64,000 bases of DNA from a virus: IMG/VR virus record IMGVR_UViG_3300027909_000018; one strand, given 5' to 3'. Of the stretch, positions 37,584-50,042 are shown piece after piece; position 1 is the stretch's first letter; every line of letters starts with the position of its first letter. Below the pieces are notes generated by a model. That model was not told the origin of the DNA and made no database searches. It saw only the letters and a list, made by a program, of their open reading frames with translations. A program made the position numbers and the translations under genes.

Positions 37584-38062
37584 GCTACGCCATGCTGTGC
37601 TTTTCTGTTCTTTGCTTCACAACGCCGCGCTGCGCGTGGCTACGCTTGCTTGGCTTCTCTTGACATCGCTTCGCTATGGTCGGCTAAGCTACGCTTGCTC
37701 GGCTGCACATCACTAGACTTTTCTAAGCTGCTCTATGCGTCGCTTGCTACGCTACGCTTCACTTAGCTGCACATCGCCGTGCCTAATTTTGCTTGCTATG
37801 CTCTACTGGACCGCGATCAACCGCGCTATGCCTCGCTGTGCTTGCTGTGCTTGGCACGTCTAGTCTGGACAGCGCTGGGCCGAGCTACGCCGAGCTACGC
37901 TTCGCTTGCTTCGCTGCTCTGCACTTCGCTTTTCTGCACTGGTCTAGGCATCGCTTGCTTTGCTTTGCTACGCTGAGCTTAGCTGGGCTACACATGGCCC
38001 GGCTTGCTTTGCTAAGCCGCAATTGGCTCCACTGCACTGTTCTGCGCTCCGCTTGCTCTGTC
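37584..38062 (-). ncRNA. Segmented (NN-AGC)n pentamer array, candidate guide-RNA array
   Basis: 87 pentamers hand-parsed: 43 end in AGC and 83 have G at the central constant position. Delimiter AAGC at 38051, 38002, 37953, 37904, 37840, 37791, 37742, 37693, 37644 (spacing 49,49,49,64,49,49,49,49). Confidence 0.8.
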
Positions 38063-38743
38063 CTACTCCGCCGCCTGGGCAACGGCGCTTTCATCAATCT
38101 CGAACGTTCCCCAGCCTTGCCCAACGCTTGCCTTTGAAAACGGACGGCCTGCGCCTACGCCGATGCTGATTCCGGAGTAGACAACCAGAGAGGCGATTGC
38201 TCGAGGCGTGAACGCCTTCGCGAGATACTTAACCCTAAGCAAACAGCTCCACTGGTCAAACTCGCCGGCCGAAACGATGCCAGACTTGCGCTGCCAGATA
38301 ACCGGTCGCTGGCGAATTGCCGGACCCGATCCGTGGATTCGAACCATACCGTTACAGTCCTGGTCCTCACCGTCTGGCAAGATGAACAGGCATTGCTTGG
38401 CGTGCGTCATGTCGATCCCCTCGGCGTAGCAAGCCCGCACCAGCGCGGCCCTAAACGCCATAGTCGGGATTCCGTGCCAGCCGTCTTTTGACGTGTGCAG
38501 CGAGTCGCGGCCGATTGCTTCGAAGTCGCGTGCCGGCTTTGCCTTGCTACGCTTCTTGGCTTTTGCCTCGACCTCGCCGATTGCCTGGTCCGTGATGATG
38601 GTCCCTTTGCTTACGTCCGAGAACCGATTGCTGACGTACTTAGCGGTCCCAACAATTGGGATCTCGATGACGTTGAACTGCGGGCGGGCAATGTCGATGA
38701 TCTTGGTTTCTGCTCTCTCTTCGTCTGTCTTGGGTTTTGCCAT
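38063..38743 (-). CDS. Stand-alone RAMP/Cas7-like protein (226 aa)
   Basis: Beta1 IEIPIVGTAKYVSN, GIPTMAFRAALVRAC (cf. IPGSSLKGALR) and C-terminal Gly-rich loop GVGAGRP...GQGWGTF; GGAGG RBS. Confidence 0.75.
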   Translation of the reverse strand: MAKPKTDEERAETKIIDIARPQFNVIEIPIVGTAKYVSNRFSDVSKGTIITDQAIGEVEAKAKKRSKAKPARDFEAIGRDSLHTSKDGWHGIPTMAFRAALVRACYAEGIDMTHAKQCLFILPDGEDQDCNGMVRIHGSGPAIRQRPVIWQRKSGIVSAGEFDQWSCLLRVKYLAKAFTPRAIASLVVYSGISIGVGAGRPFSKASVGQGWGTFEIDESAVAQAAE

Positions 38744-49729: not shown

Positions 49730-50042
49730 GGAACCCCCGTCTCGAAGAGGTCGCGTTGCACGCCGGCTTTGGCGTGTCTCGAGATGCGGGCGCGAGCAAT
49801 CGTCACGTAGGGTTCCTCCGCGGTGTCGTTGAGCTCGATGCCGATAAAGCGCCGGTCCTCGAGCAGTGCGGCTATGCCGGTCGTGCCGCTTCCCGTGAAC
49901 GGGTCGAGCACGATGCCGTCGGCGGGCGTCACGAGACGGACGAGCCAGCGCATGAGTTCGATGGGTTTAATGGTGGGATCGGCGTCGCCTCCTTCTCCAG
50001 AGCCTCAAGCGCGGCGAGGTCGGGTGCGGTAAGGTTAGGCAT
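49726..50042 (-). pseudogene. Truncated N6/N4 DNA methyltransferase (C-terminal fragment joined to an unrelated N-terminus)
   Basis: PTIKPIELMRWLVRLVTP..GIVLDPFTGSGTTG present; no DPPY half; frame closed by TGA shortly upstream. Confidence 0.7.

What the first reader, a model, noticed from the sequence alone, without database searches (positions are those of the whole stretch)
37584..38050. Variable dinucleotides may spell gapped targets (NN.NN.NN) that skip the codon wobble base
Seen, NN strings 5'->3' on the minus strand: U1 GG GC AC GC GG CA GC TT AA; U2 CG CA GT CC TA TC GT AA AA; U3 GA CT CC GC AA GA GC GC GA; U4 GA GT TC GT TC CC GC CC CT CG CA AC; U5 AC GA AT GC TG GC CC AG AT; U6 AA TA AC GA GC TA GA GT GT; U7 GA AT GC TT AA CT GA GC CG; U8 GT TT CG AT GA GA CA GA CA; U9 GT CA GC GC GT GA AA AC AA AC AT GT. 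GA+GC make up 27 of 87, as expected for codon positions 1-2 (Asp/Glu, Ala). Read as codon boxes they give protein-like peptides, e.g. U3 [DE]LPA[KN][DE]AA[DE], U7 [DE][IM]A[FL][KN]L[DE]AR, U9 V[HQ]AAV[DE][KN]T[KN]T[IM]V. Inference: each guide reads 18+ nt of a ~27-nt target, ignoring every third base, so targets in rival phage genes could not escape by synonymous mutation. I found no perfect self-target by eye, but that scan was not exhaustive.
Basis: inference. Interest (0 to 1): 0.85.

Follow-up and report, generated by a model that had tools for sequence, protein, structure and literature searches.

The report
Phage VIPR guide-RNA array

Summary
On the minus strand, 38057-37598 holds nine units, eight of 49 nt and one of 64. 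Each is a run of 9-12 pentamers (constant A-G-Y triplet plus variable NN) closed by a 4-nt step, AGCA|AGC.

The array lies between a 226-aa gene and a 151-aa gene in an uncultivated rhizosphere phage. The 226-aa protein is a Vipr: its model matches Cas7-type RAMPs, and its five best AlphaFold-cluster matches are the five founding Vipr entries of the VIPR preprint. A profile of its family also hits the tested SUSP1 vipr gene. The same gene trio recurs in Gordonia phages, a cyanophage and many metagenomic phages.

It is supported here by family membership and by weak codon-like NN composition, not by a target. I found no convincing natural target.

New detail: loss of a thumb arginine tracks the G-to-A change at scaffold base 1, in two separate lineages.

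This scan had already noted VIPR systems 61 times, in at least 55 other genomes. Verdict: new member of a known kind.

The parts
38063..38743 (-). vipr gene (P0001, 226 aa): a small Cas7-like RAMP protein that should coat the guide RNA, one protomer per pentamer.
   Evidence: AlphaFold model with pLDDT 85.7. The top PDB Foldseek hits are all Cas7-type RAMPs: Cmr4, Csm3, Cas7-11 and type VII Cas7. The top five AFDB clusters are the five founding Vipr entries of the preprint. A family profile hits SUSP1 vipr. The C-terminal glycine-rich loop reads GVGAGRP...GQGWGTF.
37598..38062 (-). vrRNA array: nine guide units of (A-G-Y + NN) pentamers. It starts 3 nt after the vipr stop codon and ends about 35 nt before the start of the next gene.
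   Evidence: No sigma-70-like promoter or terminator lies between the genes, so it is probably co-transcribed with vipr (inference).
38005..38053 (-). Unit U1 (9 pentamers + AGCA): NN = GG GC AC GC GG CA GC TT AA.
37956..38004 (-). Unit U2: CG CA GT CC TA TC GT AA AA.
37907..37955 (-). Unit U3: GA CT CC GC AA GA GC GC GA.
37843..37906 (-). Unit U4 (12 pentamers, 64 nt; contains the tandem GTAGCTCGGC x2): GA GT TC GT TC CC GC CC CT CG CA AC.
37794..37842 (-). Unit U5: AC GA AT GC TG GC CC AG AT.
37745..37793 (-). Unit U6: AA TA AC GA GC TA GA GT GT.
37696..37744 (-). Unit U7: GA AT GC TT AA CT GA GC CG.
37647..37695 (-). Unit U8: GT TT CG AT GA GA CA GA CA.
37598..37646 (-). Unit U9, read as 9 pentamers + AGCA: GT CA GC GC GT GA AA AC AA. 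37563-37597 is trailer plus the ribosome-binding site of the next gene.
   Evidence: the boundary is my inference from the AGCA that closes every other unit.
37107..37562 (-). Accessory (vap-like) gene (P0002, 151 aa): an N-terminal winged-helix-like domain plus a C-terminal helical hairpin.
   Evidence: A homologue is present in all six loci compared, in the order vipr-array-vap or vipr-vap-array. The family has 5,528 representative clusters. Model pLDDT is 90.5. Nearly all of the top 50 structural matches are winged-helix domains, at modest Z of 5-6.4.

Best explanation
This is a VIPR (Viral Interference Programmable Repeat) system of an uncultivated rhizosphere phage. It has three parts: vipr (38743-38063), a tail-less 'staggered' array of nine guide RNAs (38062-37598), and a winged-helix-like accessory gene (37562-37107).

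By homology with the characterised systems, the array is transcribed with vipr and divided at the AGCA|AGC junctions into RNAs of about 49 nt. One Vipr protomer binds each pentamer. The thumb of the protein flips the constant A-G-Y triplet out of the helix. The two variable bases of each unit then pair with double-stranded DNA in which every third base is skipped. A 9-unit guide therefore reads 18 bases of a 26-nt site, typically codon positions 1-2 of a gene of a competing phage or satellite. Binding represses transcription rather than cutting; no nuclease is encoded here.

Shown here: the anatomy, the family membership, the conserved three-part synteny, the codon-like composition of NN, and the absence of a self-target. 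Inferred: transcription and processing, the 1-nt skip in this clade, repression as the output, and the identity of the targets.
For: 1. Structure. The P0001 model matches Cas7-family RAMPs only. Its five best AFDB clusters (A0A0F9A1L0, X1U2U4, A0A661D0E2, A0A1F4YLN4, A0A2D6XG06; E from 1.5e-12 to 2e-6) are exactly the five entries from which the VIPR family was defined (Methods read).

2. Sequence. The family profile finds the vipr ORF of phage SUSP1 (E 2.4e-6 in that genome; hhalign probability 88% over thumb to G-loop). The SUSP1 locus shows the published YNNGG vrRNAs.

3. Array. It has 87 pentamers with a near-invariant G and hypervariable NN, in units of 9-12. The published range is 9-16, and the preprint lists YNNNG as an alternative consensus and describes staggered arrays whose vrRNAs overlap by 1 nt.

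4. Synteny. Vipr homologue, pentamer array and P0002 homologue occur together in Cyanophage Cy-LDV1, Gordonia phages ODay and UmaThurman, and metagenomic phages.

5. NN composition. It fits codon positions 1-2, sense strand, best: -332.8 bits against -347.5 for background. A 3-nt step is favoured by about 6 bits over the other steps.

6. No self-target, as reported for other VIPR systems.

Against: No natural target was found.

- Exact 1-nt-skip scans of IMG/VR for seven guides gave 0, 15, 0, 3, 0, 0, 0 hits. Scans of JGI metagenomes for two guides gave 0 and 11 hits.
- The hits fall in unrelated proteins and track the chance probability of each pattern.
- No locus is hit by a second guide.
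- A related phage contig without VIPR (G001:C119) is not targeted.
- Relatives' vipr and vap genes are not targeted.

The scaffold is A-G-Y, not the tested G-G-Y, and the units have no 3' tail, so the processing and the skip length are extrapolated.

The 6-bit preference for the 3-nt step comes from overall composition, not from the order of the NNs: permuted guides give 4.7 +/- 1.7 bits. G is depleted at the second N (8 of 87 observed, about 20 expected), which points to constraints other than target codons.

No RNA data exist for this phage.
Confidence: 0.9

Rival explanations
1. It is a VIPR-type ribonucleoprotein, but this A-G-Y, tail-less clade uses a different rule from type II: another skip length, or RNA rather than DNA targets.
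For: The scaffold base 1 and the thumb residues differ from SUSP1. P0001 lacks both arginines of the family's D-x-R-x-R thumb motif, and the second of these aligns with SUSP1 R138, which is essential there. No 1-nt-skip target was found. Vipr can also pair its guide with RNA in vitro.
Against: NN composition fits one constant codon phase (positions 1-2) in every unit, which needs a step that is a multiple of 3. The preprint reports the same code for all seven types and found 1-nt-skip targets for types III and V. The pocket that takes a single skipped base is formed by the thumb and helical bundle, and both are present in the model.
Confidence: 0.06
2. The array is only a binding platform or decoy. 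In this reading a phased row of A-G-Y triplets is wrapped by an oligomeric protein (TRAP-like logic), or it soaks up a rival's Vipr, and NN are unconstrained spacers with no target.
For: My first reading before the literature search was this: NAG triplets spaced by 2 nt, in runs of 9-12, resemble the TRAP binding site (my own knowledge). No target was found. The third preprint shows that vrRNAs can act as decoys and redirectors.
Against: The adjacent protein is a Vipr, not a ring-forming RNA-binding protein. NN is hypervariable between relatives while the scaffold is kept. NN composition is codon-like rather than background-like. Even decoy vrRNAs in the literature work through NN-coded targeting.
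Confidence: 0.03
3. The region is protein-coding or a chance low-complexity repeat.
For: ORFs of 65-114 aa overlap it, and the equivalent array of Gordonia phage UmaThurman is annotated as a CDS, gp40.
Against: A 5-nt period is incompatible with a reading frame. TAG recurs in the array on the strand of the flanking genes. The period and the 4-nt steps are conserved beside homologous genes in unrelated phages, whereas the sequence is not.
Confidence: 0.01

Closest known systems
VIPR systems, type II (Escherichia phage SUSP1 and a Pseudomonas fulva prophage): Vipr + vap1 + vrRNAs (bioRxiv 10.64898/2026.04.26.720920, 10.64898/2026.04.26.720927, 10.64898/2026.10.15.759431)
   Same: It has a small Cas7-like RAMP with G-loop and thumb, guide RNAs made of 5-nt units (constant triplet + variable NN) with 9-12 units per guide, a two-gene operon with a small DNA-binding-type accessory protein, a phage location and no self-target.
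   Different: The scaffold is A-G-Y (A in 76% of units) instead of G-G-Y. There is no conserved 3' tail or pseudoknot. The nine guides abut in one array between vipr and the accessory gene. The accessory protein has no detectable sequence similarity to SUSP1 vap1. P0001 lacks the thumb arginine that aligns with SUSP1 R138. Targets are unknown.
'Staggered' VIPR arrays and alternative repeat consensus (YNNNG, NNNGG, NNNNG) described for other VIPR types in the same preprint (figs S17, S18; legends only were readable)
   Same: Units follow one another with a 4-nt step (AGCA|AGC), meaning the last and first pentamers overlap by 1 nt, as the legend describes. C-NN-A-G fits YNNNG.
   Different: I could not see the figures or the type table, so I cannot say which of types I-VII this is. 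Staggered arrays were not among the architectures that the preprint confirmed by RNA sequencing.
Class 1 CRISPR-Cas backbone (Cas7/Csm3/Cmr4 filaments on crRNA)
   Same: It has the same fold and the same logic: one RAMP per repeat length of guide, with a thumb that breaks the guide-target duplex periodically.
   Different: The period is 5 nt, with 3 guide bases and 1 target base flipped out, instead of 6 nt with 1 and 1. There is no repeat-spacer array. There is only one RAMP in the three-gene module. No nuclease domain was detected in the five neighbouring genes I screened. It is encoded by a phage.
TRAP (trp RNA-binding attenuation protein) binding sites: 11 (G/U)AG triplets spaced by 2-3 nt (my own knowledge)
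   Same: It shows phased NAG triplets with 2-nt spacers in runs of 9-12.
   Different: There is no TRAP-like protein and the neighbour is a RAMP. The spacers carry information in the VIPR family. This is a resemblance of pattern only.

Membership tests
VIPR system | Vipr protein: a single-RRM RAMP with a glycine-rich loop and a thumb, of about 20-25 kDa | tested here: met
   The 226-aa model has pLDDT 85.7, a beta-hairpin thumb at about 142-174 and a G-loop at 195-214. All of the 50 listed PDB matches are type III, VII or III-E Cas7-family RAMPs.
VIPR system | Closer to the founding Vipr entries than to CRISPR RAMPs | tested here: met
   AFDB-cluster ranks 1-5 are the five UniProt entries named in the preprint's Methods. 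CRISPR Cmr6/Csm3 entries follow with weaker scores.
VIPR system | Sequence relationship to an experimentally tested Vipr | tested here: met
   Profile A1 hits the SUSP1 vipr ORF with E 2.4e-6. hhalign gives probability 88% and E 2.9e-6, but over only 45 columns, from thumb to G-loop.
VIPR system | Tandem pentamers next to vipr, on the same strand, with a conserved triplet and a hypervariable NN | tested here: met
   Between relatives the NNs share nothing, while the register and scaffold persist.
VIPR system | Scaffold consensus GGY (YNNGG) | tested here: not met
   The scaffold here is A-G-Y: A 66, G 11, T 8, C 2 of 87 at base 1. The preprint allows 'a related consensus' (YNNNG, NNNGG, NNNNG), so this does not exclude membership.
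VIPR system | 9-16 repeats per vrRNA | tested here: met
   Eight units of 9 pentamers and one of 12.
VIPR system | Accessory vap gene in the operon, predicted to interact with DNA | tested here: met
   A conserved partner is present in all six loci compared, with a winged-helix-like N-terminal domain at modest Z of 5-6.4. Which of vap1-6 it is could not be determined. It has no similarity to SUSP1 vap1.
VIPR system | Encoded by a virus or provirus, outside a CRISPR locus | tested here: met
   terS and terL lie 1.3-3 kb downstream. Identical copies occur on 38-74 kb metagenomic contigs. Homologues occur in isolated Gordonia phages and a cyanophage. I did not screen the whole window for cas genes.
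VIPR system | vrRNAs are expressed, processed and bound by Vipr | not testable with these tools
   Only DNA runs (rhizosphere metagenomes) hold this sequence.
VIPR system | Natural targets obey the 1-nt skip rule, with the skip on the wobble base | tested here: inconclusive
   No target stands above chance in the window, a related phage, IMG/VR (7 guides, exact), JGI metagenomes (2 guides, exact) or 151 Steroidobacteraceae-family genomes (U4, up to 3 mismatches: 2 hits against 0 for the reversed control). Composition gives weak support.
VIPR system | No self-targeting | tested here: met
CRISPR-Cas (class 1) | Repeat-spacer array with contiguous spacers of about 30 nt | tested here: not met
   The only repeats present are 5-nt units grouped into 49-nt modules.

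The most novel reading that the evidence does not exclude
The constant triplet of the guide may be 're-coded' in step with the protein.

In this Vipr clade the thumb motif D-[ILV]-R-x-R is kept in at least 90% of members. The four Viprs examined that lack the first arginine (P0001, P0003, P0014, P0033) have arrays with A at scaffold base 1, with A/(A+G) of 0.78-0.87. The six that keep it have 0.00-0.61. The loss occurred in two separate lineages.

The window's system is the most derived: both arginines are gone, and it is the only array whose unit-initial pentamer is also AGC.

If this arginine reads scaffold base 1, the A-G-Y systems would be private scaffolds. Rival phages' G-G-Y solo guides, which are known to hijack Vipr, could not load them, and the reverse would also hold. 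That would be an orthogonality switch in the phage-phage arms race, and a handle for engineering orthogonal VIPR tools.
Probability: 0.3. Interest if true: 0.5.

Novelty: new member of a known kind. Interest (0 to 1): 0.3.

Why it matters

The locus still adds three things:
- It extends VIPR to an uncultivated soil phage. A related phage contig sits in a Steroidobacteraceae bin, which is only a weak hint of the host.
- It is a clean example of the tail-less, staggered array type, which has not been characterised experimentally.
- It gives a testable residue-to-base covariation (thumb arginine against G or A at scaffold base 1). That could explain how scaffold specificity diverges and whether VIPR systems can be made orthogonal.

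Its nine guides are also a ready set of probes for finding this phage's competitors, once suitable metagenomes can be searched with mismatches allowed.

Tried and rejected
1. TRAP-like or ring-protein binding site. This was my first reading. I dropped it once the neighbouring protein proved to be a Vipr.

2. Rfam. No family matched.

3. Pfam, NCBIfam and PADLOC. Nothing was found for P0001. P0002 had no Pfam or NCBIfam match and only a marginal PADLOC hit (JetA, E 0.0056). PHROGs returned families of unknown function only.

4. DNA similarity to isolated phages. None was found.

5. Variation among near-identical copies. All six metagenomic copies of the array are identical, so they say nothing about NN turnover.

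6. Self-targets and targets in a related phage, at gaps 0-3 against 200 shuffles. No signal. Isolated low-probability cases (U3 at gap 3 in the window, 0.03; U1 at gap 2 in C119, 0.01) are what 72 tests would give by chance.

7. Exact 1-nt-skip scans.
- U3's 15 IMG/VR hits include the peptide DLPAKEAAE in two unrelated large phage proteins, but U3 has by far the highest chance probability (5e-10 per codon).
- U6's 3 hits and U5's 11 hits are in unrelated proteins.
- No second guide converges on any hit locus.

8. Guides against relatives' Vipr and Vap proteins. No match above shuffles.

9. U4 against 151 genomes of the Steroidobacteraceae family. Two 3-mismatch hits against 0 for the control. 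I did not pursue this, because the host assignment is weak.

10. Expression. No RNA runs exist, so no reads were laid.

11. The skip-rule likelihood test. It favours a 3-nt step, but permuted guides do so as well, so it measures composition only.

Full report
**What is there**

On the minus strand, a non-coding stretch lies between a 226-aa ORF (38743-38063) and a 151-aa ORF (37562-37107). It keeps a strict 5-nt register. The heptamer AGCAAGC occurs nine times, with spacings of 49, 49, 49, 64, 49, 49, 49 and 49 nt.

Each unit is a run of pentamers made of a constant triplet and a variable dinucleotide. Eight units have 9 pentamers and U4 has 12. Each unit closes with a 4-nt step, AGCA|AGC.

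GC (14) plus GA (13) gives 27 of 87, as stated. The triplet is A-G-Y: the G is present in 83 of 87 units, the A in 66 of 87, and the third base is C in 58 of 87 and never G.

U9 is best read as an ordinary 9-pentamer unit, because its 10th pentamer starts with the closing AGCA.

Such phased runs do not arise in shuffles of the window. The array starts 3 nt after the stop codon of the upstream gene. No promoter-like or terminator-like site separates the three parts. The small and large terminase genes lie just downstream, so this is a phage.

**Comparative evidence**

The 226-aa protein (P0001) has no Pfam, NCBIfam or PADLOC match, and its only PHROG match is a family of unknown function. It does have homologues at 27-33% identity in Cyanophage Cy-LDV1 and in Gordonia phages ODay, Ecliptus, UmaThurman and Pipp, and about 70 clusters of metagenomic homologues.

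In nine of the ten further loci I inspected, an array of the same build lies just after the homologue or after its partner gene. It has pentamers with a conserved triplet (GGC in most, AGY in some), variable NN, and units of about 7-13 separated by 4-nt steps.

The 151-aa protein (P0002) has a homologue in all six loci compared, placed either after the array or between the gene and the array. The module is therefore a conserved trio.

**Identification**

[quoted passage not shown] It describes VIPR systems:
- A roughly 20-kDa ancestral RAMP protein (Vipr) binds vrRNAs made of 9-16 YNNGG pentamers.
- Only the NN dinucleotides pair with double-stranded DNA.
- One target base is skipped per unit, and that base usually falls on the codon wobble position.
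- Natural targets are competing phages and satellites, and the output is transcriptional repression.
- Accessory vap genes accompany vipr.
- Seven types are defined, with alternative repeat consensus (NNNGG, YNNNG, NNNNG) and 'staggered' arrays whose vrRNAs overlap by 1 nt.

A companion cryo-EM paper (10.64898/2026.04.26.720927) shows one protomer per pentamer. The thumb flips out the GGY triplet and the single skipped target base, and the complex forms an R-loop triplex. A third paper (10.64898/2026.10.15.759431) shows the phage-satellite arms race and decoy vrRNAs.

**Membership tests run here**

- The AlphaFold model of P0001 (pLDDT 85.7) matches only Cas7-family RAMPs in the PDB.
- Against AlphaFold-DB clusters, its five best matches are the five UniProt entries from which the authors defined the Vipr family. 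CRISPR Cmr6/Csm3 entries rank below them (against the Methods).
- A profile of the P0001 family finds the vipr ORF of phage SUSP1, and that locus shows the published vrRNAs.
- P0002 folds (pLDDT 90.5) into a winged-helix-like domain plus a helical hairpin. The Z-scores are modest at 5-6.4, but nearly all of the top 50 matches are winged-helix domains. This fits the DNA-binding Vap proteins the preprint describes. P0002 is not similar in sequence to SUSP1 vap1.
- The one defining feature not met literally is the GGY scaffold. C-NN-A-G falls under the preprint's YNNNG class.

The proposed code (NN.NN.NN, third base ignored, synonymous escape blocked) is the published 1-nt skip rule. At this locus I could test it only indirectly.

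Composition. The 87 NNs fit the window's own codon position 1-2 statistics on the sense strand better than any other phase, strand or the background: -332.8 bits against -347.5 for background and -348 for uniform. Because every unit shows the same phase, a step of 3 nt is favoured by about 6 bits over steps of 2, 4 or 5. That preference comes from overall composition, since permuted guides behave alike. G is also under-represented at the second N. I therefore rate this as weak support.

Targets. No guide has a self-target, or a target in a related VIPR-less phage contig, at any gap from 0 to 3.
- Exact 1-nt-skip scans of IMG/VR for seven guides gave hits for U3 (15) and U6 (3) only.
- Scans of JGI metagenomes gave 0 hits for U4 and 11 for U5.
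- The hits lie in unrelated proteins, match the chance probability of each pattern, and are never joined by a second guide.
- Guides do not match relatives' vipr or vap genes.

The host is unknown. The nearest terminase (64% identity) is on a phage-like contig binned with a Steroidobacteraceae MAG. This part is therefore inconclusive rather than negative. No RNA data exist.

**A small new point**

In this Vipr clade the thumb carries a D-[ILV]-R-x-R motif that is conserved in at least 90% of members. By hhalign, the second arginine aligns with SUSP1 R138, which contacts the scaffold and is essential there.

| Vipr | Thumb motif | A/(A+G) at scaffold base 1 |
|---|---|---|
| P0001 (this window) | GIVSA | 0.87 |
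| P0003 | DIKAA | 0.84 |
| P0014 | NISAR | 0.79 |
| P0033 | DLACR | 0.78 |
| P0006, P0005 | DIRAR (first arginine kept) | 0.61, 0.55 |
| P0071, Cy-LDV1, ODay, UmaThurman | first arginine kept | 0.00-0.06 |

On a maximum-likelihood tree, the arginine-less proteins fall in two places separated by a 100/96-supported branch, so the change happened at least twice.

The window's protein is the most derived. It has lost both arginines and the aspartate, and it sits on a long branch. Its array is the only one in which even the first pentamer after each junction is AGC rather than GGY (8 of 8).

This rests on ten loci and two events, so it is a lead rather than a result.

**Verdict**

The locus is a new, uncharacterised member of the VIPR family: tail-less staggered array, A-G-Y scaffold, winged-helix-like accessory gene. 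Its targets remain unknown. This scan had already recorded VIPR systems 61 times in at least 55 genomes.

Noticed in passing
L003:3628-3951 (Gordonia phage UmaThurman NC_031249, gp40): The annotated 'hypothetical protein' gp40 lies entirely on the GGY-NN pentamer array downstream of the Vipr homologue gp39. It is probably a mis-called CDS over a vrRNA array.
   Followed up: partly
window 37598-38053 (-): Every one of the nine units contains a pentamer whose scaffold starts with T or AT (TGT, TGC, ATT or ATC; U4 has two). It is often preceded by GA, giving GATGT, and its position within the unit varies. Ten such pentamers landing in all nine units has a probability of about 0.005 if they were placed at random (my arithmetic). 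In the closest relative (L004) only 3 of 6 full units have one. This is unexplained.
   Followed up: partly
window 37598-38053 (-): G is depleted at the second variable base: 8 of 87 observed, against about 20 expected from codon position 2 of this phage. GG, AG and TG together occur only 4 times. The G-G-Y arrays of relatives do not show this. It may avoid creating out-of-register xG-AG scaffolds.
   Followed up: no
L004, L054, L055, L056, L058, L001-L003, L006 against the window: In all relatives' arrays, including the A-dominant ones, the first pentamer after each 4-nt step nearly always starts with G (junction AGCA|GGC). Only the window has AGCA|AGC (8 of 8). The unit-initial pentamer may have a special role, such as a 5' handle or nucleation site.
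   Followed up: partly
window 50008-50042 (+): A run of seven phased R-G-Y+NN pentamers lies on the plus strand, over the start of a minus-strand gene. It is longer than any run in 20 shuffles (maximum 5). It may be coincidence within coding sequence or a short solo guide-like tract.
   Followed up: partly
L016, L017, L020, L025-L028 (IMG/VR contigs): The U3 pattern matches, in codon phase, the peptide DLPAKEAAE near the C-terminus of two unrelated families of 700-850-aa phage proteins that have no Pfam or PHROG match. The wobble bases differ between contigs. I cannot distinguish this from chance for this very common pattern, but it is the only candidate target family I saw.
   Followed up: partly
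L058:1810-2490 and L055:3225-4075: Two relatives carry very long (0.7-0.9 kb), partly degenerate pentamer arrays with 10-19 junctions, much larger than the array in the window.
   Followed up: no
G001:C119 (69-kb contig binned with a Steroidobacteraceae MAG; L031, L033-L037): This is a related phage: terL is 64-67% identical and the structural genes are about 65-70% identical at the DNA level. No Vipr homologue was found in the incomplete MAG (G001) that holds this contig, and none of the nine guides targets the contig.
   Followed up: yes
window 36163-36588 (-) and 36588-37103 (-): Two tightly coupled genes (171 aa with no match; 141 aa with a weak HTH_17 match) lie between the accessory gene and terS. 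They are not conserved next to Vipr in the other loci, so I did not count them as part of the system.
   Followed up: partly
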